A model generated the notes under the pieces. It made no database searches, was not told the DNA's origin, and worked only from the letters and a program-made list of their open reading frames with translations. A DNA stretch of 64,000 nt from contig CAWDQP010000007.1 of NCBI GenBank assembly GCA_963804505.1, positions 18,788 through 82,787 of the forward strand, given 5' to 3'. This DNA comes from an uncultured Thermoplasmata archaeon (GTDB lineage: Archaea; Thermoplasmatota; Thermoplasmata; Lutacidiplasmatales; UBA184). Below are positions 15,641 to 56,294 of this stretch, piece after piece. The translations under genes were made by a program, and so were the position numbers. Position 1 is the stretch's first letter. Every line of letters begins with the position of its first letter.

Positions 15641-15830
15641 AATCGTCATCGACGACGAACCCTCCGGTGAGGCCCGTGGCCGCGCCGGACAGGGCCGGGA
15701 CGGGCCGCTCGGGCCCGCCCGTCGTGACAGCGTATCCGACCCTACTTCGTCTACGGGGACCGGCATGGGCGCCGCCAAGGTTTAAGCGAACGAAGCCCAT
15801 CGGTCGGTGGACCGGCGCGGGACTCCGCGG

Positions 15831-18716
15831 ATGAAGACGAAAAGCAGGCCAGCAGGCGCGGGACATTATGCGAACTGGCCGACGCTCCTGCTCGCGGCGG
15901 GGATCGCCGCGCTGATGATGGTGACCGGCGGCGTCGTGGGAGCGGTCCTCTCCCCCACGGCCACGCCGTTTCACGGTTCGTCGGCCACGGTGCCGACTCC
16001 CCGATCCGAGAGCCCGGTGGCCGGCCTCTCCGCGTCGGAGATACACCCGTTGGTCTCGGTTCCGACCGTGAGCGAGACCCTCGTCCTTCCGAACGATACC
16101 CTCCAACCCGGTAACTTCCTGGCGGGCAACGGGTTCGCGCCGGTGGGCGTGTCGTACGACACTGTCCTCAAGCAGATCTTCGTCGCGGACTCGGGCGCGA
16201 ACAACGTCACGGTGATCTCGGGCACGATCGACACGGTCGTCGCGAACATCTCGGTCTGGAACGGTTCGGTGGCGGTCGCCTACGACAACGGCAAGAAGGA
16301 GACCTTCGTGGCCAACGAGAACGGCACCGCGCTCACGGGAAACGTGAGCGTGATCGCCGACGTGAACGACACCGTACTGAAGAACGTCACGGTCGGCACC
16401 TCCCCGGTCGCTCTGGCGTACGTCCCCACCCGCAGCGAGATCTTCGTCGCCAACTCGGGGTCGAACAACGTGAGCATCCTGAGGGACGGCAACAACAGCA
16501 CCGTCCTTGTGAACCTCACCGTGGGGAGCAAACCGGTCGTGCTCGTATACGACGCCGGCAAACATCTCGTCTGGGTCGCGGACGAGGGTTCGGACAACAT
16601 TCTCGGGATCTCGGTCACGACGGACAAGGTGGTCGCGTCGGTCCCGGTCGGCGTGCAGCCGGTCGCCCTGGCCTACGACTCCAAGAAGAAGGAGGTGTTC
16701 GTGGCGAACTACTTCTCGGGGAACGTGAGCATCGTCTCGGACGCGTCCGATAAGGTGATCGCGTCCGTGCCGGTCGGTACGGGGCCGGACGCCCTCGCGT
16801 ACGACCCCACGAACAAGGAGGTCGTGGTCGCCAACTCGTTCACCGACAACGTCAGCATCATCTCGGACCTGTACAACACGGTCGTGGCGCACGCATCCGT
16901 CGGAGGCGACCCTGCGGGGATCGCGTTCGACACCGCGACCGACCGTCTGTACGTCGCGAACTCCGCCACGGACAACGTCAGCGTGCTGGCGGGTTTGACG
17001 AGCACGGTGGTCGGGACGGTCGCGATCGCGGCGACGCCCGACGCGGTAGCGTTCGACAGCGGAACGGACGAGCAGTTCGTCGCGAACACCCTCTCCAACA
17101 CCGTCGATATCGTCTCCGGCACGAGCAACTCGATCCTGGCGACCGTCCGGGTCGGCACCGACCCCACCAGCCTGGCCTACGACAGCGGACAGGGTCGGAT
17201 GTTTGTCGCCAACCACGGCTCGAACAACGTGAGCATCATCTCCGACTCCACCGACAAGGTGGTCCAAAGCATTCCCGTGGGGTTCGGCCCCGCGGGCCTC
17301 ACCTACGACCCTGTTCGAGACGAGATCCTGGTCGCGAACTCCGAGTCGAACAACGTCAGCGTGATCAACCTCACGTCCGACACGGTCGGCGCCTCGGTCC
17401 CCGTCGGGGTCGATCCGGACGCGATCGTCTTCGACAGCGGGGTCAACGAAACGTTCGTCGCGAACTCCGCATCCAACAACTTGAGCGTGATCCTGGACGT
17501 CGTGGACGTGGTGGTCGCCAACATCCACACGGGCATCTCGCCCGCAGCCCTCGCCTACGACAGCGGGCGGGGCGAGATCTTCGTCGCGAACTCGGGGTCC
17601 AACAACGTGAGCGTGATCTCGGATTTGACGGACAAGGTCCTCACCAGCGTCAACGTGGGCGCCGATCCGGTCGCCCTTACCTATCAGGGCCGGCTCGCGA
17701 GCGACCTCCTGGTCGCCAACTTCGAGGACAACACGACCAGCGTGATCGCGGACGCCACGAACACCGTGGCCGCCACCCTCCCCGTCGGCAACAACCCGGC
17801 GGCCGCGGATTACGACTCGACCCACTCCGTCGCCTACGTCGCCGACATGGCCACCGGCACGGTGTCGATCCTTCGCACCGCCCAGACCCTTTCGGTGACG
17901 TTCAAGCAGACCGGCCTGCCGGGGAACACGACCTGGACCGTCGCCCTGGACGGGTTGCCGGTCGTCTCCAACCTCTCTGCCGTTCCGTTCTTCGTCTCGA
18001 ACGGGTCGTACTCGTACCTGCTCGTGGGTCCGTCGGGCCAGCGCATCTCGGGAACGCCACCGGCGGGGACCGTGAACGTCTCCGGTACCTCGGTGGTCGT
18101 GAGCTTCTCGTTCCTCACCGCGAAGACGTACACCCTGACCATCAAGGAGGCGCAACTTCCGACCGGAGCCACCTGGTGCGTCGCGCTCCAGTCCTGGGAA
18201 CGGTGCACCACCGCGACGAAGATCGCCGTCCTGAACCTGACGCCCGGTGCCTACGCTTACACGATCGGGGCGCACGGATCGCGCCTGATCACGGCGAAGC
18301 TAGGAGGGAAGACGATCCCGCTGTCGGGCTCGCTGGTCCTGGGGACGAAGAGCCTTGCGATGGCTCTGACGTACGCCTGGACCTACGCGGTGATCTTCAC
18401 CGAGACCGGCCTTCCGGGAGGCACGAACTGGAGCGTGACGGTCTCCGGCGTGCTCGAGTACTCCACCTCGACCTCGATCGTTTTCCACCTCGGGAACGGA
18501 AGCTACCCCGTCGTCGTGGGCAAGATCGTGAACTACACCTCGCCCGGGGCGCCCCACCACGTCGCCGTGAAGGGCGCCGCCCTTGTCGAACCGGTGACGT
18601 TCACTGCGAAGACCATGGGCGTCCCGCTCGCGAACGCACTCGGTGCCGCGTCGGTCGCGCGCGCTTGGGCCAGCCCGAGAAGCTCCAGCCCGGCAGCGGG
18701 GCTCGGCACGGCGTAG
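15831..18716 (+). CDS. Secreted YVTN/YncE double beta-propeller surface protein
   Basis: 14 repeats of ~42 aa (P..LAYD....FVAN..SNNVSVI), followed by GLP modules. N-terminal hydrophobic segment. Confidence 0.85.
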   Translation: MKTKSRPAGAGHYANWPTLLLAAGIAALMMVTGGVVGAVLSPTATPFHGSSATVPTPRSESPVAGLSASEIHPLVSVPTVSETLVLPNDTLQPGNFLAGNGFAPVGVSYDTVLKQIFVADSGANNVTVISGTIDTVVANISVWNGSVAVAYDNGKKETFVANENGTALTGNVSVIADVNDTVLKNVTVGTSPVALAYVPTRSEIFVANSGSNNVSILRDGNNSTVLVNLTVGSKPVVLVYDAGKHLVWVADEGSDNILGISVTTDKVVASVPVGVQPVALAYDSKKKEVFVANYFSGNVSIVSDASDKVIASVPVGTGPDALAYDPTNKEVVVANSFTDNVSIISDLYNTVVAHASVGGDPAGIAFDTATDRLYVANSATDNVSVLAGLTSTVVGTVAIAATPDAVAFDSGTDEQFVANTLSNTVDIVSGTSNSILATVRVGTDPTSLAYDSGQGRMFVANHGSNNVSIISDSTDKVVQSIPVGFGPAGLTYDPVRDEILVANSESNNVSVINLTSDTVGASVPVGVDPDAIVFDSGVNETFVANSASNNLSVILDVVDVVVANIHTGISPAALAYDSGRGEIFVANSGSNNVSVISDLTDKVLTSVNVGADPVALTYQGRLASDLLVANFEDNTTSVIADATNTVAATLPVGNNPAAADYDSTHSVAYVADMATGTVSILRTAQTLSVTFKQTGLPGNTTWTVALDGLPVVSNLSAVPFFVSNGSYSYLLVGPSGQRISGTPPAGTVNVSGTSVVVSFSFLTAKTYTLTIKEAQLPTGATWCVALQSWERCTTATKIAVLNLTPGAYAYTIGAHGSRLITAKLGGKTIPLSGSLVLGTKSLAMALTYAWTYAVIFTETGLPGGTNWSVTVSGVLEYSTSTSIVFHLGNGSYPVVVGKIVNYTSPGAPHHVAVKGAALVEPVTFTAKTMGVPLANALGAASVARAWASPRSSSPAAGLGTA

Positions 18717-19935: not shown

Positions 19936-20610
19936 TTGACGACCGTCAAGACGCTCGCGGCGTACGAGATCGTTCAATCGGTGCATCCCCACCCGGTGAC
20001 CGAACGCGACTAGCTCGGCATGGCCGTGGGGCGGGCGATCGACAGCGTGCTCTCCCGCTACAGCCACGAGTTCAGCGCGTCCCGTCGGCCCACCGCGACC
20101 GCGATGAACCGGCTCGCGGCGGAAACTCTCGACGAGGAGCTGACGGACGCCGACCTGTCCCTGTCCGCCTCGGACCGGGAGAAGCAGCTCGCCCAGGTGG
20201 CGGGCGTCCTGCAGGCGTTCCGGCGCAGCGAGGTGATGGGGATGCTTCGCCCGAAGAGCCGCCTGGTCCTGATCAACGAACGCGCCGGATTCTACGCCCA
20301 GCCCGATTACTGGAACGGCCGCGATCGGTTCTACGAGATGAAGAGCTACCGCGCTCCGCCGATACCGCCCGGCGTGGAGCTTCAGCTCCAGCTGTTCCAG
20401 CTGGCGTTCCCTCGCTTCACCGCGGTCCTGGCGTCGTACGACCGGCACTCCGAGCCGGTCGCCACCGTCCTAACCGAAATCCCTGCGCTGGAGGCGTCCG
20501 ATCAAGAACGCCTTCTTCGGCTCGCCCTCCCGATCGCGGGCGAGCTCGGGAAGGACAAGGTGCTCGAGTACATCGACAGCCCGATCGTTCGCTACGCGAT
20601 CCCCAGCTGA
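19936..20610 (+). CDS. PD-(D/E)XK (RecB/Cas4-like) nuclease-fold protein, interrupted by an in-frame TAG at 20011-20013
   Basis: AQPDYW..FYEMKSY..QLQLF fits the PD..ExK..QLxxY pattern. The upstream TTG ORF is in frame with 20020..20610. Confidence 0.55.
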
Positions 20611-20807
20611 GGGGGACCACGGTCTCTTCGACCCGTCGGGATTCTTCCCCGCGTGTGAGCTCGGGTGAGCGAACCAAGACCCGCGAAGTTGGCCGACCCG
20701 GCCGAAATCGCGCCGCGCCCCAGCCGAGCCCTATTATACTTTGGGGGGGGTCCCCGGGCACGCAGCAGCCCGCGCCACCTCGGCGCGGGTCCGGGGCGTA
20801 GGGGGGG

Positions 20808-21398
20808 CTGCCGACGCAGCGGGAAGAGGCGGGCTACCGCACGAGGGTCGAGGTCCTGAGGGACTTCCTCCGGGCGGTTCGCCAGGAGCCGAAGAAGACC
20901 CGGATCATCGGGTTGGCCAACCTGAACCCTTCCTCCTTCCGCCGATACCTTGACTTCGGCATCGCCTTCGACCTGGTCCGACCCACGCCGAGAGGGTACC
21001 GCCTTACCGTTCGCGCCGAGGCCGTACTGAACACGATCGAGCGGCTGCTCTCCAAGAGCACCGAGTTCGAATCGATCCTCGGCGAGCTGTACCAGGCCCT
21101 CGGGGGCGCGCCCCCAGGGCGCGGCGCGCGGGGCACCTCGTCCGCGCGGACCGTCTCGCGCATCGCCCTCGGCGAGATCGCCCTCCCCAGCATCGGGAAA
21201 TCCGGGGGGATCGCTGCCCCCGGGGAGCGGTTTCCGGATCCGGGTCTTCCGATCGATTCGATTGACCGCTGGTGGTCGCGCGACTCGGAGCCACCCGGGG
21301 TGGCGCCACGTATGAGCCCTGGGGCTCGAGGGGATCTCGCGCTCCTGCCGCCCTCCGTCACCCTGCGGCGATCCGCCCGGCCGCGCTCCCGAAAGTGA
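20808..21398 (+). CDS. Archaeal winged-helix transcriptional regulator (start uncertain)
   Basis: RTRVEVLRDFL...KKTRIIGLANLNPSSFRRYLD...YRLTVRA resembles the archaeal wHTH pattern RSRxEI..KTxIxxxANLN..Y.LT. In-frame stop at 20799-20801 limits the start. Confidence 0.7.
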   Translation: MPTQREEAGYRTRVEVLRDFLRAVRQEPKKTRIIGLANLNPSSFRRYLDFGIAFDLVRPTPRGYRLTVRAEAVLNTIERLLSKSTEFESILGELYQALGGAPPGRGARGTSSARTVSRIALGEIALPSIGKSGGIAAPGERFPDPGLPIDSIDRWWSRDSEPPGVAPRMSPGARGDLALLPPSVTLRRSARPRSRK

Positions 21399-21405
21399 GG
21401 TGATC

Positions 21406-22759
21406 GTGAGCGCCACCGTGCCCCGCACGGCCCCCGCATCGACTCCCGCGGGCGGGCTCTCCGACCGACAGAGCCTCGCGATCGCGTTGGGGATTGCCGC
21501 GGCCGCGATCCTGACGACGCAGGTCTACGGTTACCTCGAGCGGTGGTTCACAGGGTACGGCAGCTACCTCGGTCTGTTCGGGCTCGGCGCCACGCTCGTG
21601 GGCCTCATCCTCCTCGCCTCGAGGCTGGAGCGACGGCCCCTTCGCGACCTCGGCTTCGCGCTTCGCGAACCGCTGTCGGCGAGCCTGACGTTCGCCGCCC
21701 TGCTCGTCCTGCTCTACCTCGCGGTATGGATCGATCCGGGTTTCCTGTTCGGGTTCGGCAAGCTGGTGCCGACCCCCCCGATCCCGTTCGGCCTGCTGCT
21801 GCTCAGCGCTCCCGTCCTGGCCCTCGCCGAGGTCGGGCTGTTCTTCGGGTACGTGTTCCGGACTCTCGCGCGGGTCCTCCCGCTTCGGGTGGCTATGTTG
21901 GCCGCCGCGGCGATGTACGCTGCCAACGCGACCAATGTCCGGGTCCTCCCGCTCCTCGGGGCGACCGCGGCGACGCAGTTCCTGTTCTCCACGACGATCC
22001 TTTCCTTCGTCGCGGGGATTATCCTGGCCCTCTATCTGTACAAGGCGCGCTGGAGCCTCGTGGGCCCGATCACCCTGGCCGACCGGACTTTCGGCGTTGA
22101 CGACGCTGCTGCCGTACGCCGCCCGGTTCCCGGGCTGGGAGACCGAGTTCGCGGCGGCGCTGATCGCGTACTGCGTGGTGCTGGTCGTCGTGGGCCTCGG
22201 GCTGGAGGAGCCCCGACTGCAGAAGCTTCGCTACCTCGGCGAGCGGACCGGCCCGCGCCGCTTCCGGTTCCGGAGCCGAGCCCGCGAGCGGGCCGCCCTC
22301 CGAGGGACGTTCTTCAGCGCGGCCGTGGTCGGGGTTGTCGCGATCTCGTTCGTCTACGGCCTGCCCGTGGTCCTCGGGAACCCTTCGCCCATCCTGGCGA
22401 TCGCGACCGGCAGCATGGTCCCCACGTTCCACCGGGGCGAGCTCGTGGTCGTGGAGCGCGTGGCGCCGGCCGCCATCAAGGTCGGCACGATCATCGCGTT
22501 CGACGTCCATTGCCTACCGTCGCCGACCGTCCATCGCGTGATCCGAATCGTCTCCGGCGGACCGAACTGGACCTACCAGACGAAGGGCGATGCCAACCCC
22601 GTCCAGGACCCGTGCACCGTCGCCTACGCGGACGTGCTGGGCGCGGTCGTCTTCTACGTCCCGTACGTGGGCTACCTGATCCTGGACCGCCTGTTCGCCG
22701 CCTCGGTGGTGTTCCTCGCGGTCCTGGTCCCGGTCGTCTGGCGGGGGGAGCGGAAGTGA
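21406..22759 (+). CDS. CPBP/Abi-like multi-TM domain fused to an ER-type/SipW-like S26 signal peptidase (frameshift ~22081)
   Basis: N-terminal LRDLGF and LAEVGLFFGY, several TM helices, then GSMVPT (Ser), VHRV (His), TKGDAN and VPYVGY with no stop in the second frame. Confidence 0.75.
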
Positions 22760-24293
22760 GGGTCTCGGCGCGGGGTCGAACCGTCGCGACCGCGCTGGCG
22801 GTCGTCTTCGTGCTCACGACTGTCTGGGCGGCCTACTACCTGGACGCGCAGGTCCATCCGGTCAACGCGAACGCGACGGGCACCACGGTCGCGACGTTCT
22901 CGCAGACGGGGGCCAACTCGTTCGCCGCGGCCGTCAACGCGAGCGTCCTCTACAACTACTCCACCGAGGTCTACGGCGGCAACATCACCCTGTTCACGCC
23001 GATCACCAACTGGATCAACGTCAGCATGATCTACGCTCTGGTCGCGGATAGGCCGGCGTCGATCGCGATCAACGAATCGTTCAGCGTCGGCCTCTCCACG
23101 ACCGTCTGGTCGAAGGTGTTGTTCGCGTCCAGCAACCAGACGACGGCGACCGATGCGACCTTCCTCACCCTTCCGAGTCAGTACCGATGTGAACGTCTCC
23201 TCCGTCGTCGACCTAGCCCAGTCGATCGATCATCAGATCGGCTTCGTCGGGACGGAGTTCACCCTCTCGCTCCAGCCGCACCTCACCGGCTCGCTCACCG
23301 TCTCGGGAATCCGCCAGCCGTTCGCGGAGGAACCGTCCCTCAACCTGACGTTCGCAGGGTCCCTCATCACGCCGACCGGGCTCAACTACTCGAGCTCGGG
23401 TGCGATCATCGCCCCGCCCGCGGCGGCCCGGACCGGTCCGATGACCGCCCTGGTTCCCTCCACGGCCCTCGCGCTCTCGCTCGGGGGCCTGGGAGGCAGC
23501 CTCTGGTTCGCGACCCGCCGCCCGGAGGACGAGGTCGTACCGCCTCTCGAACAGATGATCGCGCCCTACGAGGAGGCGATCGCCGAGACCGAGACCGTGG
23601 TCGGCTCGGCGTCCCTGATCCGGGTCGATCGGTTCGCCGACCTCGTGAAGGTCGCCGACACGCTCGGAAAGCCGATCCTCCGCCCGGGCGGCAGCGACGC
23701 CAGTCGGTTCGATTTCGTCGTCCTGGACGGTACGTGGGCGTACACCTTCCGATACCCCGGAGGGTCGGGCGGCGGTCCCGTGGCGACGGCCCGCCCGGGC
23801 GCCCCCCCGGTGAGTCCCCCATCGGCACCGGTCCCCACGGGGGATACCTCCTCGTGGACCACCCCGACCGGACGGCCGACCCGGACGGCTCCGCCCGACT
23901 CCTCGTCCAATGCGGCGCGGAACGCTCCGCCGTCCAGCCGGGCTGCGCGGCCCGGCCCTCCGTGCCCGCGCCGGGCACGTCCGCCCCGGCACGTCGGCCA
24001 CGACGGCGGCGCCACCGGATGCGGCGGCCGGACCCGACGATCCCTCGGGGCTATCGCCGGGGTCGCTCGCCGTCACGCGCCTCCTGAAGCGCGAGGTCGC
24101 CCGGATGGAGACGCTTCAGCTCGACCGCGAGACCTCGTTCGAGGCGCGGGCCCGGATCAGCCGAACGATGGCGCTGGTCCAGGAGAACGATCTCGCGGCC
24201 GCCTACCTCGAAGTGACCGAGCTCTCCCAGCTCTTGACGCGCGGAGCCCGCCGAGGGGGGCCGGCGCCGGGGCCCGTCGCGGAGCCGCACTAG
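22756..24293 (+). CDS. DUF5305-like membrane-anchored protein (frameshifts ~23185 and in the Pro-rich tail)
   Basis: N-terminal TM, sequon-rich outer domain, second TM, then YEEAI..VDRFADLVKVADTLGKPIL..VLDG.WAY. GTGA overlap with the peptidase gene. Confidence 0.65.
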
Positions 24294-24431
24294 CCGGATC
24301 GGCGCGTCGGGCACGATTGATACGTACAATCCGCGCGCATGGTACGGAGAACAATGGAAACATCTTCCCTTGCCGTATAACTCCCCACGTCTTTGTTGCC
24401 TCGGGTACTGGTACCCGGAGTGTTGGGCAAT

Positions 24432-24971
24432 ATGGGAAAGCGGTGGATTTTGGGTCTCGTCGCCGTAGTCGCAGTGATCGCGGTGGGCGGGATCGGGTTT
24501 GCGAGTTTTACGACGAGTGCGTACATCGACGCGCAGGCGCAGGCGGGCACGCTCGGGCCGCTCTACTGGAGCAACACGGCGACGCCCTCCGGCACCGAGA
24601 GCTTCGATGTCTGCACGAACTTCATCACGACGACCTTGAACATGAGCGACACGCTCAACTTTACCGCCGGCAACCTCGCCCCCGGTGACTCCTGCACGTT
24701 CAGCGCGTACCTCAACAACGGCGGTTCGATCCCGGCGGCCATCTCGATTACGTCGACCAAGGACAGCGGGGCCGGTTGCTTCGTGACGTACACGTACGAC
24801 AGCTGGTTCGGCTACGAGTCGTACGGTGAGACGCACGGGACCGTGACCATCCCCGGCCTCTCGTCCCAAGTGTACACCGTCACCGAGGGCCTCATCAGCG
24901 GAATAGGGAACTCCGATCAGGGTGTCTACTGCAACATCGTCCTGACGTTCTCCGCGTCTGCGGGGACCTAA
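24432..24971 (+). CDS. TasA/camelysin-like secreted protein with a SipW-type signal peptide (paralog 1)
   Basis: GFA/SFTTSAYIDAQAQAGTLGPL, NLAPGDS..LNNGGSIP and GNSDQG..IVLTFSA match TasA-family motifs. Confidence 0.75.
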   Translation: MGKRWILGLVAVVAVIAVGGIGFASFTTSAYIDAQAQAGTLGPLYWSNTATPSGTESFDVCTNFITTTLNMSDTLNFTAGNLAPGDSCTFSAYLNNGGSIPAAISITSTKDSGAGCFVTYTYDSWFGYESYGETHGTVTIPGLSSQVYTVTEGLISGIGNSDQGVYCNIVLTFSASAGT

Positions 24972-25028
24972 AGGGATCGGCACCGAGTTGCATCGAACCC
25001 AGCGAGCCCAACGAGCTGTGAGGGTACC

Positions 25029-25586
25029 ATGCGCCTGACGAGGGCAACGACCGGGCTGGTCGTGGTGGCCGTACTGGCCACCGTCGGCACCGGTTTCGCC
25101 GCCTTCACGACCTCGGCGTACATCGATGGTGGCGCCCGGGCCGGTACCTTTGGTCCCCTCGTGTGGGGCTCGCAGCCGGCGTACGGCGGGTTCGAACCAA
25201 ACGACGTGTGCTATGCGTCGCTCGGACCGGCGACCCACTTCCCGGACGACACCCTCTACCTGACCGCGAGCGTCCTTCTTCCGGGCGACATCTGCAGCTA
25301 CGGAGACACCCTGACGAACCTGGGGTCGATCCCCGCGAACGTCTCGGAGCAGATCACGAGCGTGTCCGGGATCCTCTGCGGCATGACGGTGTTCGGGGAC
25401 AATTTTTTCTCCCCCGCGGTCACCATCGGGGAGGGCGGGCAAACGAGCGCCCTCTCGCACGTCGTGCCGGCGACCTCGTCCATCCAGTGGGCCGGGTTCA
25501 TCCATCTCCTGCCGACCGCGACCGATCTCTCCTCGGGCGAAAACTGCACCTTCGTGGTGACACTGTCCGCATCGGCCGGGACGTAG
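25029..25586 (+). CDS. TasA/camelysin-like secreted protein (paralog 2)
   Basis: GFA/AFTTSAYIDGGARAGTFGPL and LLPGD..LTNLGSIP. Shares four Cys and the SASAGT end with paralog 1. Confidence 0.75.
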   Translation: MRLTRATTGLVVVAVLATVGTGFAAFTTSAYIDGGARAGTFGPLVWGSQPAYGGFEPNDVCYASLGPATHFPDDTLYLTASVLLPGDICSYGDTLTNLGSIPANVSEQITSVSGILCGMTVFGDNFFSPAVTIGEGGQTSALSHVVPATSSIQWAGFIHLLPTATDLSSGENCTFVVTLSASAGT

Positions 25587-25707
25587 GCTCGACCGCAGCG
25601 TGAACGAGGGGTCGGGGCAGAGGTTACGGTGCCCCCGACCGGTCAATCGCCCTGTTGTGTAGTAGTCCCCGTACGGATCGTCTCCCGGGTCTGGAGCCGA
25701 TGATCCA

Positions 25708-26247
25708 GTGAAACATCTGATAGTCCTTGTGGTCGCCGTCATCGCCGCCTCCGGCGGCGTGGCATTCGCGTGCGGCGGAGGCGGGGGATCGGGGTGCGAC
25801 CAGAGCCATGACGGCTCGAAGTGCACGACACTACAGATCGAGTGGAAGAACCCATCCGGCACGGTCGCGAGCGCCTCGTACGTGCACTGCCAGCTGAGCC
25901 TCACCACGTCGACGCTCACCGCGGTCGCCGACGTCCTCGCTCCGGGTACGTCGTGCACTATCGCCGCGGTCCTGGCGAACGTGGGAAGCGTGGCCGTCAC
26001 CCTCTCCCAGACGATCAGCATCGGCGAGCCTCATGCGTGTCCCCTGTTCACCTACACCGACAACCTTCCCAATTCTCCCCCCCGCGAGCTTGCTTCCGGC
26101 GGGACGTTCTCGTACCAAGGGGTCATCGGGCTCTCCCCGACCGCCGGGAACGCGTGCCGGGACGCTTCCACGGTGATCGTCGTCACGATCACCGGAACCG
26201 AACAGTCCTCCGGCTGCGGTAATCCGCTTCTGCTCCCCTCCGAGTGA
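25708..26247 (+). CDS. Divergent Cys-rich TasA-like secreted protein (paralog 3)
   Basis: Signal ends GVAFA. Core LAPGTSC..LANVGS and AGNAC. The N-terminal strand is replaced by CGGGGGSGC. Confidence 0.6.
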   Translation: MKHLIVLVVAVIAASGGVAFACGGGGGSGCDQSHDGSKCTTLQIEWKNPSGTVASASYVHCQLSLTTSTLTAVADVLAPGTSCTIAAVLANVGSVAVTLSQTISIGEPHACPLFTYTDNLPNSPPRELASGGTFSYQGVIGLSPTAGNACRDASTVIVVTITGTEQSSGCGNPLLLPSE

Positions 26248-26343: not shown

Positions 26344-27072
26344 ATGGCAACGGAATCTCAGGCGATAGCGAACCAGCTTACCCGACAGCTCGAGCTCGAC
26401 ATTCCCCCTGTCCAGGTGTCGTATCTGGAGCATCCCCCGAACGGTGTCGCGCAGCACCCGGGCGGCGTTCCGTCCGTCTGCACCTTCTTCGCCTTCGGCG
26501 CCGAGAAACCGTTCTACGCCCCGCTGACCGAGCACGCCGCGTGCGAGATCGGGGCGTTCGTCCTCGGCATCCCTCCCGAAGGCGACCTGGGGGGCCGGCT
26601 GATGTCGACGATCGGCACGATGCAGAAGGAGGGGTACCTCAACCCCGGCGAGGAGGCCCATGTGCCCCACAATGCCACCCCGCCGAAGTACGTTGCCTAC
26701 GGCCCCCTCGGCTCGCTGAACATGCCTGCGACCGCGGTGCTGCTGTTCGCGAAGCCCAGGTCGGCGATGCTGGCCGTGGAAGCCGCCGGCGCGGGCACGG
26801 ACGCGAAGCCGGTGTCGATGAACGGGCGGCCGATGTGCGCCATCATGCCGATCATGAACCAGGGCACGCCGGTGGCGATCTCGCTCGGTTGCACGGGCTC
26901 GAGGATCTACACGGACCTGGGGATCGACAAGATGGTCGTCGGGATCCGGGGCGACAACCTCGTCCGCTTCGCGGAGAAGTTGACGCGGATCGTGAAGGCG
27001 AACGAGATGGTGGCGACCGATACCAAGGCCCGGAAGGGCCTGGCGGGTCACCCGCACCGCAAGCCTGGGTGA
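26344..27072 (+). CDS. DUF169 family protein
   Basis: PSVCTF, ACEIGAFVLG, VAYGPL, RPMCA, SLGCTGSRIY. Confidence 0.75.
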   Translation: MATESQAIANQLTRQLELDIPPVQVSYLEHPPNGVAQHPGGVPSVCTFFAFGAEKPFYAPLTEHAACEIGAFVLGIPPEGDLGGRLMSTIGTMQKEGYLNPGEEAHVPHNATPPKYVAYGPLGSLNMPATAVLLFAKPRSAMLAVEAAGAGTDAKPVSMNGRPMCAIMPIMNQGTPVAISLGCTGSRIYTDLGIDKMVVGIRGDNLVRFAEKLTRIVKANEMVATDTKARKGLAGHPHRKPG

Positions 27073-27178: not shown

Positions 27179-27382
27179 ATGCGAGCATGTCCATCGTGTC
27201 AGTCGCCGATGGAGAAGGGGAGCCTGGCGGCGGAGTCCCTCACCGGCGGGGCGAAGTGGCACAAATCGCGGTCAGTTCTAGCTTTGGGGGGAGAGAAGAT
27301 CGGCGACTACACCCTCGGCGGGATGGTCTGGTTTGACGGATTCCGCTGTGCGAAGTGCCGCATTCTAGTGTTAGGTTTCTGA
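27179..27382 (+). CDS. Small Zn-ribbon hypothetical protein (CPxC..MEKG..CxxC; DUF6487-like), passenger inside IS630
   Basis: MRACPSCQSPMEKG...FRCAKCRILVLGF, with a GGAAGG RBS-like sequence upstream. Confidence 0.65.
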   Translation: MRACPSCQSPMEKGSLAAESLTGGAKWHKSRSVLALGGEKIGDYTLGGMVWFDGFRCAKCRILVLGF

Positions 27383-28486
27383 GAAGGGACCACGCACCGT
27401 TTCCAAATCGGTCGTCGGTGGACTTTCCACTTGCGCATCTGAGTGTCCCCAAACCGCTTCTTGCGTAGTACGCGTTCGCGATTCCGATAGGCGACCGCTC
27501 GCGCTACCTCTCTCCGAACTTCGGTCCACGACCCGAAGTTCGACCCCGCCAGCACCAACTTCTGCAGATCGCCGGCGTGGCTCTCGACGGGGTTCATCCA
27601 GCTCGCCTGGGTGGCGGAAGCCACCAGCGTCACCCGATTGTCCCTCGCCCACCCTCGGTACATCGGGGGTCCAATGGGCGCTCAGGTTGTCCTGAATGAG
27701 GTAGATCCGCTGGTCCGTCGGATACTTCTCTACCTCCCGTTGCACGTAATCGAGCCAAGGTTCCCCGCCCTTGTGCCGATAGGGGCGGCCGCTGAGTCGC
27801 TGGTGGTAGACGTTCAGCGTGAGGTAGAGGTACCGCGTGCCCTTGAGCCGCTTGTAGGTCGAAGGGATCCGCTCGGGGTGCCCCGAGCGAAACCATCCCT
27901 TCCCTCCATGCGGCTGAAGGGAGATCGGACCGATCTCGTCCATGCTGAGCACGATCGGTGGGTTGTGCTTCTGGTGCGTCAGCCGGTCGATCCGCCGTCG
28001 TTTCTCCTCGAACTTCGGGTCGTGGGACTCTTTCCAGGTCTTGATCGACTGGTGGCTCATGTCCGCCTCGTCCAAGACGATGCGGAGCCACTCCAACGAG
28101 ATTGAATCGACGATCCGCTGGTTCCTCGCCTCGTCCCGGAGTCGGGCGAGGGACCACTGAGAGAACGGCAAGCCGAGGTCCCTCGGCCGACTGGTGGCGA
28201 GGGCCACCAGAGAGTCCTTCTGTTCCTGGGTGAACTTCCAGTTCCCTCCCGCCTTCCAGTTCGGCTTGAGCATCTTGAACCCGTGAAGGTTGAACTCTCG
28301 AATCAGGGTCCGGACCCAGTCGGGAGAATAGCCCACCAGGCGAGCGATGTAGGGCGGAGTGAACCCCTGGGCACTGGAGAGGATCACCATCGCGCGGTGG
28401 AGCTCGATGGCGTCAGTCGGATGTCGGCACAATCGGGCGAGTTTCTGACCTTCCTCGTTGGAGATCGGTCGAATACGGCGCACCAT
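27307..28486 (-). CDS. IS630 transposase (frameshift ~27660)
   Basis: N-terminal HTH (RAMVILSSAQG), then the DDE triad SMDE, QDNLSAH, ASWMNPVE. Confidence 0.9.
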
Positions 28487-28598: not shown

Positions 28599-29165
28599 TC
28601 AGACCTGGGTGACGAGCACGTTGAACGAGTTGACGGACGTGATCGTGCCCTGGCTGAGGTCGACCGCGAAGACCGCGGTCTCGGAGGCGGTGATCGTGGC
28701 CGACGTCTCGATCCACGCGCTCGCGAGGATGCTGTCGGCGGTGGGCGTGGTCGACTCGAAGATGCTCACGTTGAACAGCGTCGAGACGCTGGCGGTGGCG
28801 TTCCAAGAGACCTCGAGGATCCAGATGGTGTCGCCGGTCAAGTAGCCGCCGGCGAACGCGTTGAGGCAGATCCCGAGCGACCCTCCATCGGTCAGATGGT
28901 TGGGCGTGACGTTCGTGCCGAGGTTGGTGGTGGTGCACGCGCCGGTCGCCGGCGTGGAGCTCGGTGTGACGAGTTCCGCCTCCGCGAGGGGGAACTGGAC
29001 CCCGGCCGGCGCGCCGGGAGCGACGCCGGAGGCGCCGGTCTGCTTGGGGATGAATCCGAAACTTCCGAAAGTGAACGAACCGAGGGCGAATCCCGCGACC
29101 ACGGCGAACGTGGCGATCGCCAACACCAGATAGAACGTCCCGCGCGCGGTCGTGTTTCGCTTCAT
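28599..29165 (-). CDS. Secreted or membrane-anchored hypothetical protein
   Basis: MKRNTTARG followed by a long hydrophobic helix. Thr/Ser-rich body with one Cys pair. Confidence 0.65.
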   Translation of the reverse strand: MKRNTTARGTFYLVLAIATFAVVAGFALGSFTFGSFGFIPKQTGASGVAPGAPAGVQFPLAEAELVTPSSTPATGACTTTNLGTNVTPNHLTDGGSLGICLNAFAGGYLTGDTIWILEVSWNATASVSTLFNVSIFESTTPTADSILASAWIETSATITASETAVFAVDLSQGTITSVNSFNVLVTQV

Positions 29166-29326
29166 CCGGTACGCCCCAACGGGGAGCAGTCGAGCGCGGA
29201 GGGGGTATTTAACCCCCACGAGGTCGACCTTCACGGGGGACGACGGCACTCCGCCGAAACGCGGGCGTGGCCCCTCGCGGCGTCGCCGTCCGCGTTACAA
29301 GCGGGCCCCCGAGAGGAGGAGCGACG

Positions 29327-43756: not shown

Positions 43757-43794
43757 CCCTCCGCAGGGCCGGCGGAGAGGTTTCTCAGCGCGTG

Positions 43795-43890
43795 CATTGC
43801 GTTCCCTTCGCGGGCATTATCCCGTGCAGGTTCCTGGGGTCGACGAGGCGAACCTCGTCCTCTCAGCCGGTTCCGAGCTCCCCCTGCATC
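43795..43890 (-). ncRNA. TPP (thi-box) riboswitch
   Basis: Minus strand reads GGGG..CTGAGA..ACCC..ACCTG..GGATAATGCCCGCGAAGGGA, the TPP consensus, directly upstream of the binding-protein gene. Confidence 0.93.
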
Positions 43891-43986
43891 CTACGTCAGA
43901 CGGGAGCGTGATAAAACGTCACGCGGACCCGGCGGGGCGTCCGGCTTATACTGACTCCGTGCCTAGCACACCCCGAGGGAACCACC

Positions 43987-51262: not shown

Positions 51263-52036
51263 TTATGGGCTTCGGAAAGCGCCCGCCCGACGGGCACGAC
51301 CCCCGGTAGCGCGGGGGCGCGGCCGGGTGAACCGCTGGGCAGTGAACAGCGCCGCGGGGACCGCCGCGTCGATGTTGAAGACGGCGATCGGGGAGCACGA
51401 TTGGAGCATCGCGTTGAGCGCGGCGTGTCCGCCGCCGCCCCGCCCGTAGCCGATCGAGGTCGGAACCCCCACGACGGGGGCGTGGACCAGGCCCGCGACG
51501 ACGGTGGGGAGTGCTCCTTCGCGTCCGGCGAAGACGATGTACGATTCCGGTCGCAGCCGTTCCGTCCGAGCCAGGGCCGCAGTCAACCGGTGCAATCCCG
51601 CCACCCCGACGTCGTACGCCGTGACCACGCGGATCCCCAGCTCCGTGAGAACGGCCCGGGCCTCCTCGGCGAACCCGACGTCGCTCGTTCCGGCGGCGAG
51701 GATGGCGACGGTGCCGTCGGCGTAGCTTCCACCCAGCGGACCGGGCAGACGCAGCACCCGGCCCCCGGCCAGGGAGATCACCCGGATCCCCTCCGTCCGC
51801 GGTGCGAGCAGGTACCGGCGCTGGGCGGCCGACGGCCGGGAGACGAGCGCCCCCACGCCGCGGGCGCGCAGGCCGTTCAGGATCCCGACCAACTGGTCGA
51901 CCGACTTTCCCTCGCCCAGGATCACCTCGGGGATCCCGGTCCGGCGCGACCGATCCCGATCGATGCGCGCGAAGCCGCCCACCGCGATCTCGCGACCGCG
52001 TGCACCGCGATTCCTCCCCTCGACCGGCGGCCCCAC
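51263..52036 (-). CDS. larB: Nickel-pincer cofactor biosynthesis protein LarB (AIR carboxylase-like)
   Basis: RTGIPEVILGEGK, AGTSD..AEEA, DVGVAGLHRL, VPTSIGYG, MLQSCS. Confidence 0.88.
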   Translation of the reverse strand: MGPPVEGRNRGARGREIAVGGFARIDRDRSRRTGIPEVILGEGKSVDQLVGILNGLRARGVGALVSRPSAAQRRYLLAPRTEGIRVISLAGGRVLRLPGPLGGSYADGTVAILAAGTSDVGFAEEARAVLTELGIRVVTAYDVGVAGLHRLTAALARTERLRPESYIVFAGREGALPTVVAGLVHAPVVGVPTSIGYGRGGGGHAALNAMLQSCSPIAVFNIDAAVPAALFTAQRFTRPRPRATGGRARRAGAFRSP

Positions 52037-52239
52037 GCTCGAGACGACCGGCTTTGAAACTTAACCTCGGCGGGAGGCGTTCATGAAACAGAACTGGACC
52101 TGCCTGAAACAAAACCTGATGCCCGGTCCGACCGAGCTTCTCTTAGAGGGACTACCCGAAACGAGAGGCAGCGTTTGGGATCACGCTCGGTTCTCGGGCC
52201 ACTCCAGTCAACGTCACGGCGAGGTGAACCGATTCGAAG

Positions 52240-52320
52240 GGTCCTGTTCCAATTCGCGAGGTCCGTCCCGGGCCTATCGGCGAGGCCGGCCTCCTCACCC
52301 CGCGAATCCGCAACAGAGCC
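52240..52320. repeat. 81-bp palindromic repeat, copy 1
   Basis: Identical to 53079-53159. Ends GGTCCTGTTCCAATTCGCG and CGCGAATCCGCAACAGAGCC form an imperfect inverted repeat. Confidence 0.95.
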
Positions 52321-52451
52321 AGATTCGGGTAAGTTTTTTGATACCGAAAACGAGATTACTCTTGGAATGGACTTCGCATCATTGGGCCTCGACTACGCTA
52401 TATCCGGAAAGATCTGGGACTAAATCGTCCGCGGTCGGCTCAGGTGTCAAG

Positions 52452-53006
52452 ATGGTCAGGTTTGAGCTGCAAGACTTTCAGCGACGGGTGTGGCGTGCGA
52501 CTCGATCGAACGTAACCCACCCCATGGGAATGACATTCGTTGTTCTGCTCGTGGGGTTCGGGGCGTACATCTCGTTTCGGAGCCTCGAAGCTGGCCAGTT
52601 TCCCACCACGCTTGTCAACCTCGGGCTGATTGGAGGCCTTGCCGTAATGGTTTATCTGTTGTTCGTTCTTCGGACGGCCGTTGGTCCCGAGTTTGTCGAT
52701 ATAGATAACCAGGGAGTGCGGTTTACGTTTAACTCGCACTCGGTTCACTCCTTCTGCTGGGACGATCCGGAATTCCGCCTCTGGCTCAGGTTCCTAACTG
52801 ACAACAGACTGCCAGGACCCGATCAGGATGTCTGCTGGATTTGGGGTCGTGGTCTCTGGCCGAAAACTCTGCCGGTTCCAGTTCCTGTGGCTGAACGGAT
52901 GCTAGCGGAAGCCAAAGCAAACCGACTCGAAGTACATTCAAAGTACCCCGGCAGCGGACCATCGGGTGGAATCGGGATGTACCAGCTTCGTGCTCCCAGT
53001 CATTAA
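52452..53006 (+). CDS. Two-TM membrane protein with a PH-like soluble domain (transposon cargo)
   Basis: AGGTG RBS-like sequence before the ATG, two hydrophobic helices, then VDIDNQGVRF..FCWDD. Confidence 0.65.
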   Translation: MVRFELQDFQRRVWRATRSNVTHPMGMTFVVLLVGFGAYISFRSLEAGQFPTTLVNLGLIGGLAVMVYLLFVLRTAVGPEFVDIDNQGVRFTFNSHSVHSFCWDDPEFRLWLRFLTDNRLPGPDQDVCWIWGRGLWPKTLPVPVPVAERMLAEAKANRLEVHSKYPGSGPSGGIGMYQLRAPSH

Positions 53007-53078
53007 AGCTTGTATGATGAGGATTAAGTGACAGCAACCGAAAGTCTTACGATAGAAGTGCGATTCGGACCGAAGAGC

Positions 53079-53159
53079 GGTCCTGTTCCAATTCGCGAGG
53101 TCCGTCCCGGGCCTATCGGCGAGGCCGGCCTCCTCACCCCGCGAATCCGCAACAGAGCC
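53079..53159. repeat. 81-bp palindromic repeat, copy 2 (direct orientation)
   Basis: Identical to 52240-52320. Confidence 0.95.
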
Positions 53160-53208
53160 GTCCGTAGGGAGGATCCTTCTATGAGAAAGCACGACGGCCG
53201 AAGAATCG

Positions 53209-53403
53209 TCAGTCTCGCTTAGACGACTTTGGTTTGGGCCCGACCGATACGGTCACCCGCAACGAGCCAGGCTCGACCTCCCAAACTAAGGTAGAGCCGG
53301 GGACAGCGCCGAGAATCGCAGCGACCGCCTCAGGGACGGTCGCCCGGACAGATGGGGACCCGGGAACAGTCCGGAGGACTTTGGACGTGAACTTGCTGAC
53401 CAT
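53209..53403 (-). CDS. AbrB/MazE/SpoVT-like small DNA-binding protein
   Basis: SVRATVPEAVAAILGAVPGSTLVWEV fits the swapped-hairpin pattern. Divergent from the transposase. Confidence 0.65.
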   Translation of the reverse strand: MVSKFTSKVLRTVPGSPSVRATVPEAVAAILGAVPGSTLVWEVEPGSLRVTVSVGPKPKSSKRD

Positions 53404-53527
53404 GCCGCCGCTCGGTGAGGCACACCCCTACAGGAATAAATGCGTTGGCTATCACATACGCCAATACATTGGCCTTAAGTACTCTCGAACTATAGGGCAA
53501 TACAGTAGCCAATATCGGGGGCAAACA

Positions 53528-55770: not shown

Positions 55771-55821
55771 ACGGCGACTCCCTGCCGCGATGTAAGAAAG
55801 GTCTCACTTAGATGAGTCGGG

Positions 55822-55977
55822 CTAGTTTGTTTCGTAGGTAATCGAGACACCAATAATGGCAGGGGCCGGCTGGGGTGGAATGATTCTCAGTAACTCAGCC
55901 AAATCAGTATTCTCACTGATTGCACGACGGAGCATCTCATCCACGATGCGGGCGAGCTCCTCGGCGCTTTCCGCCAC
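55822..55977 (-). CDS. Small (51-aa) hypothetical protein upstream of the protease
   Basis: GTG start, then helical AESAEELARIVDEMLRRAISEN and a PPQPAP..TYETN tail. Co-oriented, 52 bp upstream of the protease. Confidence 0.45.
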   Translation of the reverse strand: MAESAEELARIVDEMLRRAISENTDLAELLRIIPPQPAPAIIGVSITYETN

Positions 55978-56294
55978 AGGTGAGCCTTGAGGGCAAGCGC
56001 TAACGAAAAGGCTTGCGCCCTGACTTTCCTTATCCCTTGCTGCCTGCAAGAAGAGGGTAGGGCGAACGCCCCTTACTCGGGTCTGAGATTGAAACCGGAT
56101 TGGCGAGGCTGAAAACAGATGACCGAGTAAAGGTCGATCCCATCTTACCGTCGGTAGAACCGAGACCGGACTTATCTGAAACAGAACTCGACCGCGTGAA
56201 ACTAAACCCGCCCGGCCGAGGATGTTAAGTTTCAAAGCCGAGACGACCCAAGCCGTGATATAGCGGGTGCCCGTGGCACGCCGCCTTCCTCCTA

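What the first reader, a model, noticed from the sequence alone, without database searches (positions are those of the whole stretch)
20808..26247. Putative archaeal TasA-like filament operon: wHTH, CPBP::SipW, DUF5305-like and three TasA-like subunits
Seen: six co-oriented genes. Two secreted paralogs begin their mature chain GFA/(S,A)FTTSAYID..AGT(L,F)GPL and carry the L.PGD..L.N.GS.P core, and the first also has a GN..QG motif. Established: Bacillus TasA is processed by a dedicated SipW and polymerises by donor-strand exchange, and related bundling pili are described in Pyrobaculum. Inference: a dedicated biofilm fibre system in Thermoplasmata with its own peptidase, membrane accessory protein and regulator. 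Four conserved Cys suggest disulfide-stabilised subunits.
Basis: partly seen in the sequence, partly recalled or inferred. Interest (0 to 1): 0.85.

Follow-up and report, generated by a model that had tools for sequence, protein, structure and literature searches.

The report
Archaeal AbpX/TasA-type fibre operon
A soil Thermoplasmata archaeon carries a gene cluster for a secreted, self-polymerising surface fibre with its own signal peptidase; a 2026 preprint already described clusters built this way, so this is a new member, not a new system.

Summary
The order is wHTH, CPBP-like::S26 signal peptidase, DUF5305, then three secreted jelly-roll subunits (T1, T2, T3).

- **Closest solved relative.** A 122-sequence family profile hits P. 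abyssi AbpX at E 8e-11 and TasA only at E 0.78.
- **Polymerisation.** A three-copy model of mature T1 puts residues 25-41 of one copy against strands of the next. The score was 0.75 and the best control 0.00.
- **Linkage.** The fused peptidase and DUF5305 sit beside the subunit genes in 16 of 17 related Thermoplasmata loci.
- **Frame breaks.** In the window the peptidase and DUF5305 genes are split by indels. Short-read contigs correct 22082, 23184 and 23995, and rpoB, EF-2 and rpoA1 are also split. These are assembly errors, not decay.
- **Prior description.** Preprint 10.64898/2026.01.04.697558 already describes abpX loci with a ten-helix peptidase, DUF5305, minor subunits and regulators.
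- **Differences here.** There is no acidic donor-strand residue, Asp+Glu is low, and there are four Cys columns. T3 lacks a donor strand, and the CPBP-like domain lacks its catalytic residues.
- **Negative or inconclusive tests.** TIGR04088 and the camelysin profile do not reach significance, and monomer fold searches are inconclusive.

The parts
20802..21398 (+). Winged-helix regulator (HTH_45 type). The open frame follows TAG 20799-20801 and the start codon is unresolved: CTG 20808 is non-canonical and TTG 20913 is the first canonical start.
   Evidence: PF14947 gives E 0.037 on the part from 20913, matching profile positions 29-73. The orthologue in L011 gives E 1e-8 over positions 1-72. 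tblastn identity to the L011 and L013 orthologues is 39-43%. One short-read contig confirms the G7 run and the stop.
21400..22759 (+). Fused CPBP-like 8-helix membrane domain plus archaeal/ER-type S26 signal peptidase I. The assembly carries one extra base at 22082.
   Evidence: TIGR02228 scores 86.5 bits against a cut-off of 51.85. The gene is one open frame in 16 relatives. Contigs of 2 runs leave out one letter at 22082. GSM, VHR and GDAN are invariant. The model has 10 long helices. Foldseek finds SpdC, Rce1 and SEC11A, each at probability 1.00.
22756..24293 (+). DUF5305 accessory membrane protein. Its GTG start overlaps the peptidase stop (GTGA). The assembly has an extra base at 23184 and missing bases near 23947 and at 23995.
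   Evidence: PF17231 scores 33.1 bits against a cut-off of 29. It is one ORF in L011, L013 and L015. Indels. Start codon.
24432..24971 (+). T1, a major-type fibre subunit of 179 aa. Predicted cleavage is after A24, and the donor strand is residues 25-41.
25029..25586 (+). T2, a second donor-strand-bearing subunit of 185 aa, 42% identical to T1.
   Evidence: Short-read contigs of 3 runs read Leu rather than Phe at codon 71.
25708..26247 (+). T3, a divergent subunit of 179 aa. It has the same GGVAFA cleavage motif, but its mature N-terminus is Cys followed by a Gly-rich linker instead of a donor strand, and it has extra Cys at both ends.
   Evidence: T3-type genes follow the T1/T2 genes in 10 related loci fetched and in L013.

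Best explanation
This is an operon for a chaperone-free, donor-strand-complemented extracellular fibre of the TasA superfamily. It is most like the AbpX systems of Thermoproteota.

Proposed mechanism:
1. T1, T2 and T3 are exported with a Sec-type signal peptide that ends in the conserved G-G-(I/V)-G-(F/Y)-A.
2. The operon's own S26 peptidase cuts after that Ala. It has a Ser/His/Asp active site fused to a catalytically degenerate CPBP-like 8-helix domain, and it works with the two-pass DUF5305 protein.
3. Cleavage frees an amphipathic N-terminal strand (mature residues 1-17, with Phe at position 2).
4. That strand inserts into the open groove of the next subunit's jelly roll, between the first core strands and the C-terminal strand, and so builds a filament.
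5. T3 has a groove but no donor strand, so it can sit at only one end, as a cap or anchor.
6. The wHTH protein regulates the cluster.

Shown here: homology, gene linkage, intact catalytic residues, and an in-silico donor-strand interface.

Inferred: the cleavage site, the actual polymer, disulfides, the role of T3, and a biofilm or matrix function.

The frame breaks in the window are assembly errors.
For: **Subunit family.**
- T1 has 28 homologues, all unnamed or 'hypothetical'. The only organism names given are Thermoplasmata.
- A profile of these hits AbpX chains 9sj2_C and 9rhp_A at E 3e-4 and 5e-4.
- A 122-sequence profile hits the same two chains at E 8.2e-11 and 2.4e-10.
- Peptidase_M73 matches weakly in 25 of 30 members at E<=10, best 1.8e-4, and in 9 of 122 at E<=0.01, best 3.5e-6.

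**Oligomer model.**
- Three copies of mature T1 scored 0.75, against 0.00 for the best of 3 controls.
- That mark was reached by 20 of 30 proteins solved as pairs of one chain and by 1 of 23 solved as single chains.
- The runs agree in at least 96% of contacts and the partner pLDDT is at least 88.
- Residues 25-41 of one copy touch residues 39-46, 73-86 and 162-179 of the next.

**Linkage.**
- The CPBP-like and S26 parts are in one frame, with DUF5305 adjacent to the subunit genes, in L011-L014 and in 13 of 14 further Thermoplasmata loci.
- L012 and L026 are the same contig, so the count is 16 of 17 distinct loci.
- wHTH is hit in L011 and L013 and in L015-L024, 10 loci.

**Peptidase.**
- TIGR02228 gives E 1.7e-24.
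- S338, H378, D397 and D403 are invariant in 16 of 16 sequences.
- The model has ten long helices, as reported for AbpX-linked peptidases (preprint section 9).

**Frame breaks are errors.**
- Short-read contigs correct 22082, 23184 and 23995.
- rpoB is in 6 pieces, aEF-2 in 2 and rpoA1 in 3.
- Completeness is 58% for 1.85 Mb in 11 contigs.
Against: - The monomer fold searches do not single out the family. Foldseek found nothing at E<=1e-3.
- VIA-wide put AbpA 7ueg_A at Z 7.1 (rmsd 7.7, 139 aligned), the Saci_0406 thread at Z 6.5 and the TasA fibre at Z 6.0. These sit among unrelated beta-sandwiches of Z 6-7.7, all under the Z 8 bar. The second look gave the same picture.
- PF12389 on T1 is E 0.31-0.33, 11 bits against a cut-off of 22.5.
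- TIGR04088 matches none of the three window proteins at E<=1 and 1 of 30 family members at E 4.3.
- The complex pass may reflect the model's memory of solved TasA and AbpX filaments.
- No RNA or protein evidence was obtained.
- The regulator has no canonical start codon in this strain.
- The family is patchy. It was found in 38 of 401 sampled genomes of the class at E<=1e-5, and in 7 of 43 of the own genus.
Confidence: 0.85

Rival explanations
1. The cluster is a decaying remnant. The frameshifts in the peptidase, DUF5305 and regulator genes are real mutations and no fibre is made.
For: The window has breaks at 22082, 23184 and 23947-23995. The regulator frame is closed by a TAG that a short-read contig confirms. 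The family is patchily distributed.
Against: Short-read contigs from 1 to 3 runs remove exactly the three breaks they cover. Essential genes rpoB, aEF-2 and rpoA1 are equally split in this assembly. GC3 stays at about 0.9 in the shifted frames. T1, T2 and T3 are intact.
Confidence: 0.04
2. The three secreted jelly-roll proteins do not polymerise. They are monomeric surface or matrix proteins, such as adhesins, binding modules or camelysin-like proteins, that merely share a dedicated signal peptidase.
For: Fold searches return many carbohydrate-binding and adhesin beta-sandwiches at the same Z as the fibre proteins. No experimental data exist for this family.
Against: The profile hits AbpX at E 8.2e-11. 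The amphipathic N-terminal segment is conserved. The donor-strand interface scored 0.75 against 0.00 for the controls. The gene set is the same as in AbpX and Tafi loci.
Confidence: 0.08
3. It is a strict AbpX orthologue whose assembly is triggered by calcium bound at the donor-strand/groove interface, giving AbpX-like hydrogels.
For: AbpX is the closest solved relative. There is an aromatic residue at mature position 2, the pI is 4.05, and the locus architecture is the same.
Against: Mature position 4 is Thr or Ser in 26 of 30 close members and Asp in only 4 of 122 of the wider set, with no Glu among the six commonest residues. The mature proteins have 6-7% Asp+Glu, against the roughly 15% reported for AbpX homologues.
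Confidence: 0.1

Closest known systems
abpX loci (AbpX of Pyrodictium abyssi and its homologues; bioRxiv 10.64898/2026.01.04.697558; section 9 and passages read)
   Same: The subunit is related at profile level, E 8.2e-11. It has an N-terminal donor strand with an aromatic residue at mature position 2. The signal peptidase I has ten membrane helices. A DUF5305 accessory gene, extra AbpX-like minor subunits and a transcription factor lie in one cluster.
   Different: There is no acidic residue at donor-strand position 4, Asp+Glu is about 7% rather than about 15%, and there are four conserved Cys columns rather than two Cys. The word 'Thermoplasmat' does not occur in the preprint's main text.
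tapA-sipW-tasA operon of Bacillus subtilis
   Same: It also has a dedicated type I signal peptidase next to a secreted jelly-roll subunit that polymerises by donor-strand exchange (passages of PMC9245690; PMC9674648 seen only as title and abstract start in the listing). The layout of signal-peptide end and mature N-terminus looks similar, but this is recalled and not aligned here.
   Different: TasA 8aur_A is hit only at E 0.78. NF046066 TasA matches 1 of 30 members at E 0.14. The SipW equivalog scores 50.7 bits against a cut-off of 190. No TapA-like gene was found. The peptidase here has 8 extra helices, and a DUF5305 gene is present.
Tafi (Tat-fimbriae) loci of haloarchaea: TafB regulator, TafD peptidase, TafG DUF5305, TafA/TafE pilins (PMC11821415 and PMC12337348, passages read)
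   Same: The gene set is regulator, dedicated S26 peptidase, DUF5305 and donor-strand pilins. The need for TafD in TafA processing was shown by deletion.
   Different: TafD has four membrane helices and a C-terminal Ig-like domain, not a CPBP-like N-domain. Tafi pilins use Tat signals, whereas the subunits here have no twin-arginine motif that I could see (by eye; no predictor was run).
Archaeal bundling pili, AbpA/AbpB of Pyrobaculum calidifontis (PMC9245690, passages read)
   Same: It is a donor-strand jelly-roll filament with a wHTH gene in the operon. AbpA 7ueg_A is among the better structural matches, at Z 7.1 with 139 residues aligned.
   Different: No dedicated peptidase lies near the ABP operon. 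There is no sequence-level hit to AbpA here. No AbpB/TapA-like gene is present.
SagB-SpdC complex of Staphylococcus aureus (6u0o) and Rce1 (4cad)
   Same: The peptidase's N-domain has the CPBP/Abi fold. 6u0o_A gives E 5.5e-3, probability 1.00 and TM 0.66 on the target. 4cad gives probability 1.00 and TM 0.60. The next unrelated row is at E 0.24. SpdC is a CAAX-protease-like membrane partner that sets where a single-pass hydrolase cuts (discussion of 10.1101/2021.03.06.434200).
   Different: Here the CPBP-like module is fused to the hydrolase, and the hydrolase is a signal peptidase. That chain A of 6u0o is SpdC is my inference from its length and helical match.

Membership tests
TasA superfamily (donor-strand jelly-roll fibre subunits) | Significant sequence or profile relation to a member with a solved fibre structure | tested here: met
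   The A3 profile hits AbpX 9sj2_C at E 8.2e-11 and 9rhp_A at E 2.4e-10. With the 30-sequence profile the values are 3e-4 and 5e-4.
TasA superfamily (donor-strand jelly-roll fibre subunits) | Jelly-roll fold like TasA, AbpA or AbpX | tested here: inconclusive
   The model is all-beta from residue 44, with pLDDT 80. AbpA scores Z 7.1, the thread Z 6.5 and TasA Z 6.0, but they are tied with unrelated sandwiches and lie under Z 8.
TasA superfamily (donor-strand jelly-roll fibre subunits) | N-terminal strand of one subunit completes the sheet of the next | tested here: met
   This is in silico only. The score was 0.75 against a best control of 0.00. The mark was reached by 20 of 30 solved homo-pairs and 1 of 23 single chains. 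Contact agreement is at least 96% and pLDDT at least 88. Residues 25-41 lie against 39-46, 73-86 and 162-179. The pass may be from memory of solved filaments.
Pfam Peptidase_M73 (camelysin/TasA) | Score over the gathering cut-off (22.5 bits) | tested here: not met
   T1 scores 11.2-11.3 bits at E 0.31-0.33, and T2 and T3 have no match at E<=1. There are weak matches in 25 of 30 family members at E<=10 and in 9 of 122 at E<=0.01.
AbpX family | Aromatic residue at mature position 2 | tested here: met
   Phe occurs in 29 of 30 sequences, and F, W or Y in 84 of 122. The cleavage site is assumed to follow A24.
AbpX family | Acidic residue at mature position 4 (calcium site) and about 15% Asp+Glu | tested here: not met
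   Position 4 is T, S, A or G, with Asp in 4 of 122. Asp+Glu is 7.1% in T1, 7.5% in T2 and 6.3% in T3. The pI is 4.05-4.72. The criteria are taken from section 9 of the preprint.
AbpX family | Linked ten-helix signal peptidase I and DUF5305 accessory gene | tested here: met
   The model has 8 + 1 + 1 long helices. PF17231 scores 33.1 bits against a cut-off of 29. The linkage holds in 16 of 17 loci.
SipW-cognate signal peptide (TIGR04088) | HMM match | tested here: not met
   None of the three window subunits matches at E<=1. One of 30 family members matches, at E 4.3.
Archaeal/ER-type signal peptidase I (TIGR02228) | Score over the cut-off and the Ser/His/Asp catalytic residues | tested here: met
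   The score is 86.5 bits against 51.85. GSM Ser, VHR His and GDxN Asp are invariant in 16 of 16 sequences and present in the window. Human SEC11A 7p2p_A matches at 30% identity with probability 1.00. The residue roles are recalled.
CPBP / Rce1-like (PF02517) | Family-level sequence match | tested here: inconclusive
   The window part has no match at E<=1. Relatives score 34.1 and 24.3 bits, over the cut-off of 22.4, and 18.7 and 17.4 bits, under it. The fold matches Rce1 and SpdC at probability 1.00.
CPBP / Rce1-like (PF02517) | Catalytic motifs EExxxR, FxxxH and HxxxN (motifs recalled, not from a call) | tested here: not met
   The first Glu is Ala or Gly in 16 of 16 sequences. The Arg is kept in only 3 of 16. 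No His or Glu is invariant in the N-domain.
HTH_45 winged helix (PF14947) | Score over the gathering cut-off (25.5 bits) | tested here: inconclusive
   The window from TTG 20913 scores 14.5 bits and covers profile positions 29-73 only. The L011 orthologue scores 35.5 bits over positions 1-72. The upstream 35 codons of the window are open and homologous but lack a canonical start.

The most novel reading that the evidence does not exclude
This Thermoplasmata branch may be a calcium-independent, disulfide-stapled variant of the AbpX system, with two features that my searches did not find described.
1. The 8-helix N-domain of the dedicated peptidase is a catalytically dead CPBP/Abi module. Like SpdC with SagB, it would hold the conserved GG(I/V)G(F/Y)A signal-peptide end in the membrane and present it to the S26 site. 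That would give the enzyme its substrate specificity.
2. T3-type subunits are cut to expose an N-terminal Cys followed by a Gly-rich tether in place of a donor strand. This arrangement is lipobox-like. It would make T3 the membrane-tethered or disulfide-linked base onto which T1/T2 strands dock.
Probability: 0.2. Interest if true: 0.6.

Novelty: new member of a known kind. Interest (0 to 1): 0.35.

Why it matters
- It extends the AbpX/TasA donor-strand fibre systems, with their unusual ten-helix peptidase and DUF5305 partner, to uncultured soil Thermoplasmata.
- Strong matches are confined to the window's own family and are patchy within it. Weaker matches occur in six other families of the class, which suggests an accessory trait.
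- The family could serve as a natural comparison for what calcium does in AbpX, because it keeps the donor strand but lacks the calcium-binding glutamate.
- Recognising the peptidase's extra domain as a dead CPBP fold gives a testable idea for how dedicated signal peptidases pick their substrates.
- Practically, the case shows that this assembly is riddled with single-base indels. Any gene-level reading of this genome must allow for frame breaks.

Tried and rejected
- **Foldseek with the T1 model against the PDB.** No match reached E<=1e-3. The hits were generic CBM and cupin sandwiches.
- **VIA-align, wide search and second look.** Nothing exceeded Z 7.7. AbpX entries did not appear in either list, which shows nothing either way.
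- **NCBIfam.** TIGR04088 and the TasA equivalog gave no significant hit.
- **The search for related loci with the 122-row alignment.** It failed for lack of a conserved stretch, so I repeated it with the 30-row alignment.
- **Two Marinicella loci, L029 and L030.** They match only 40-49 residues and have no peptidase or DUF5305 nearby. I set them aside as unrelated.
- **Disulfide geometry.** Only Cys column patterns were used.
- **TATA-box regex over 20.5-26.4 kb.** It found nothing, so promoters were not assigned.
- **Short-read contig cover.** Contigs do not cover about 23847-24037 well, so the missing base near 23947 rests on L015 alone.
- **RNA.** No RNA run was found, and I asked only for kind 'dna'.
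- **Paper supplements** were closed. Table S3, Fig. S16 and DataS1 of the AbpX preprint may already list Thermoplasmata loci.
- **Literature searches behind 'not found in print'.** 'CPBP' + 'signal peptidase' + 'TasA' returned 0 papers. 'CAAX' + 'SipW' returned 1 review. CPBP, CAAX and Rce1 occur 0 times in the AbpX preprint's main text and CPBP and CAAX 0 times in both Tafi papers.

Full report
**What is in the sequence.**
The window is about 68% G+C, so spurious ORFs abound. I therefore used third-position G+C to find the coding frames. Between 20.8 and 26.2 kb on the + strand there are six coding units. Two of them change frame without a stop.
- The membrane-protein/peptidase gene reads in frame 1 from GTG 21400 to about 22077, and in frame 2 from 22082 to the stop at 22759.
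- The next gene starts at GTG 22756, overlapping that stop. It reads in frame 1 to 23184, in frame 2 to about 23947, and ends in frame 0 at 24293.
- Three short genes follow intact: T1 at 24432-24971, T2 at 25029-25586 and T3 at 25708-26247.

**Are the frame breaks real?**
They are very likely not.
- The closest intact relative, L015, is 83% identical in DNA over 5.9 kb. It has single open frames for the regulator (233 aa ORF), the peptidase (452 aa) and DUF5305 (about 507 aa). Inside these genes it differs from the window by single-base indels at 22082, 23184, 23947 and 23995, and in a G-run at 20808.
- Four soil-metagenome runs of one study hold the locus at 99% or more. Their contigs carry Nextera-type adapter ends, so they are short-read data.
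  - They leave out one letter at 22082 (X1, X2) and one at 23184 (X1, X2, X3).
  - They add a G behind 23995 (X1, depth 2).
  - These runs may be the sample the window came from. That makes them a good check for errors, but not independent evidence.
- Genome-wide, rpoB is in six pieces, aEF-2 in two and rpoA1 in three.
- Estimated completeness is 58% for 1.85 Mb in 11 contigs, while genomes of the same genus and similar size reach 90-95%.
- One exception stands. A contig of X2 spans 20753-21183 without gaps, so the G7 run and the in-frame TAG at 20799 are real. The regulator then has no canonical start before TTG 20913, which would remove about 28 of the 77 HTH_45 positions.

**What the genes are.**
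- **S26 part of the peptidase.**
  - It matches archaeal signal peptidase I (TIGR02228) at 86.5 bits against a cut-off of 51.85.
  - It does not reach the Bacillus SipW equivalog.
  - Its Ser, His and Asp motifs are invariant in 16 orthologues and present in the window.
- **Upstream membrane part of the peptidase.**
  - It has no Pfam hit in the window.
  - It reaches Rce1-like/CPBP in four relatives, two over the cut-off and two under it.
- **Model of the L015-type fusion (pLDDT 75.5).**
  - It has eight long helices, a ninth helix before the beta-rich catalytic domain, and a tenth at the C-terminus.
  - Foldseek's only confident matches are SagB-SpdC 6u0o_A, Rce1 4cad and human SEC11A/C, each at probability 1.00. 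The next row is at E 0.24.
  - The CPBP catalytic motifs (recalled) are not kept. No His or Glu is invariant in that domain.
- **Third gene.** It is DUF5305 (PF17231, 33.1 bits against 29). A Pro/Gly/Ser-rich linker and a C-terminal helical tail are shared with relatives.
- **First gene.** It is an HTH_45 winged helix.

**The subunits.**
- T1 has 28 homologues of 172-192 aa. None has a Pfam domain, and the few that carry a name are 'hypothetical protein' from Thermoplasmata MAGs.
- An exhaustive profile search found 776 cluster representatives at E<=1e-3 and 158 at E<=1e-10.
- The 30-sequence profile hits the two AbpX entries of the PDB at about 4e-4. A 122-sequence profile hits them at 8.2e-11 and 2.4e-10 over about 130 residues. 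The TasA fibre 8aur_A is at 0.78.
- The camelysin/TasA Pfam model matches many members, but only weakly.
- The AlphaFold model of T1 has pLDDT 80. It is disordered up to residue 36 and then all-beta.
- Fold searches are inconclusive.
- A three-copy model of mature T1 passed the binding test.
  - The score was 0.75, and the best of three controls scored 0.00.
  - In calibration the mark was reached by 20 of 30 homo-pairs and by 1 of 23 single chains.
  - At least 96% of contacts are shared between runs, and the partner pLDDT is at least 88.
  - The interface is a donor strand. Residues 25-41 of one copy lie against 39-46, 73-86 and the C-terminal strand 162-179 of the next.
  - Because similar filaments are solved, this shows likeness more than proof.

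**Conserved linkage and distribution.**
- I examined 17 distinct related loci: four from the same genus and 14 from the species collection, of which one is a duplicate contig.
- In 16 of them the CPBP-like and S26 parts lie in one frame, next to DUF5305 and the subunit genes. The 17th is a 3.8-kb contig.
- Twelve of the loci also have the wHTH gene upstream.
- Ten loci, plus L013, have a T3-type gene after the T1/T2-type genes.
- Three loci (L012/L026, L014 and L027) place the subunits before the peptidase and lack the wHTH.
- In 401 sampled genomes of the class, 38 have a match at E<=1e-5.
  - Strong matches are confined to the window's own family: 11 of 59 genomes, and 7 of 43 of its genus.
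  - Weaker matches occur in six other families.

**Comparison with what is known.**
- The 2026 AbpX preprint (section 9 read) describes abpX loci in archaea and bacteria. They contain a signal peptidase I with ten membrane helices, a DUF5305 accessory protein, AbpX-like minor subunits, tip proteins and occasional transcription factors. This operon fits that description gene for gene.
- Haloarchaeal Tafi loci have the same logic: TafB regulator, TafD peptidase, TafG DUF5305 and pilins. Deletion of tafD blocks processing there.
- The 2022 ABP paper had already noted TasA homologues in Thermoplasmatota, naming Methanomassiliicoccales.
- What differs here:
  - The donor strand keeps the aromatic residue at position 2 but has Thr or Ser, not an acid, at position 4.
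  - Asp+Glu is 6-7%, not about 15%.
  - Three Cys columns are about 90% conserved. A fourth Cys occupies one of three mutually exclusive columns (64, 18 and 17 of 122), which suggests a relocatable disulfide partner.
- T3-type proteins keep the GG(V/I)A(F/Y)A cleavage motif. It is followed by Cys in 7 of the 9 sequences where the motif was found, then a Gly-rich linker with further Cys, instead of a donor strand. In one relative (L013) three C-terminal repeat domains are added.
- The preprint's main text does not call the extra peptidase domain CPBP-like, and my two literature searches found no such statement. Supplements were closed.

**Verdict.**
- The finding is real and correctly interpreted.
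- It is best filed as a Thermoplasmata member of the AbpX-like branch of the TasA superfamily, with the full known accessory set.
- It is not a new kind of system.
- The modest new points are hypotheses, not results. They are the likely calcium-independent, Cys-rich subunit chemistry, the donor-strand-less Cys/Gly-headed third subunit, and the dead CPBP fold of the peptidase's extra domain.

Noticed in passing
whole genome G000; e.g. C10:520343-522301 (rpoB), C5:121032-123183 (aEF-2), C10:522336-524920 (rpoA1): The assembly has pervasive single-base indels. Essential genes are split into 2-6 frame pieces, and completeness is 58% despite 1.85 Mb in 11 contigs. Any ORF-level reading of this genome needs frame-tolerant methods.
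   Followed up: partly
window 43785-43894 (-): There is a TPP riboswitch (RF00059) at 55.4 bits against a gathering score of 54.3. It is the only Rfam hit in the window.
   Followed up: no
window 52001-56000: G+C falls to 0.58 against about 0.68 elsewhere. This may be an island or foreign DNA.
   Followed up: no
window 15807-18716 (+): A 969-aa secreted protein has YNCE/NHL beta-propeller repeats. By eye, its C-terminal repeats of about 85 aa resemble the repeats fused to the T3-type protein of L013. It could be a surface adhesin, but a link to the fibre was not tested.
   Followed up: partly
window 27371-28486 (-): A transposase with HTH_29 and DDE_3 domains lies 1.1 kb downstream of the operon, after a DUF169 gene at 26344-27072. 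L015 also has the DUF169 gene directly after T3.
   Followed up: partly
window 28599-29249 (-): An ORF for a small secreted or membrane protein has an N-terminal hydrophobic segment and no Pfam match.
   Followed up: no
L013 4826-6175 (-): The T3-type subunit of this relative is fused to three C-terminal beta-rich repeats, giving a 449-aa open frame. This is what a tip or adhesin version would look like.
   Followed up: partly
L016 3399-3936 and 7621-7975: This related MAG locus also shows frame changes inside the wHTH and T2-type genes. It probably has the same kind of assembly error.
   Followed up: no
window 25241: Short-read contigs of 3 runs read G for C, changing T2 codon 71 from Phe to Leu. 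L015 has Leu there. Four other substitutions seen in the contigs are synonymous.
   Followed up: yes
window 20020-20610 (+): A conserved 196-aa gene with no Pfam match lies directly upstream of the operon. L015 has the same gene in the same place.
   Followed up: no
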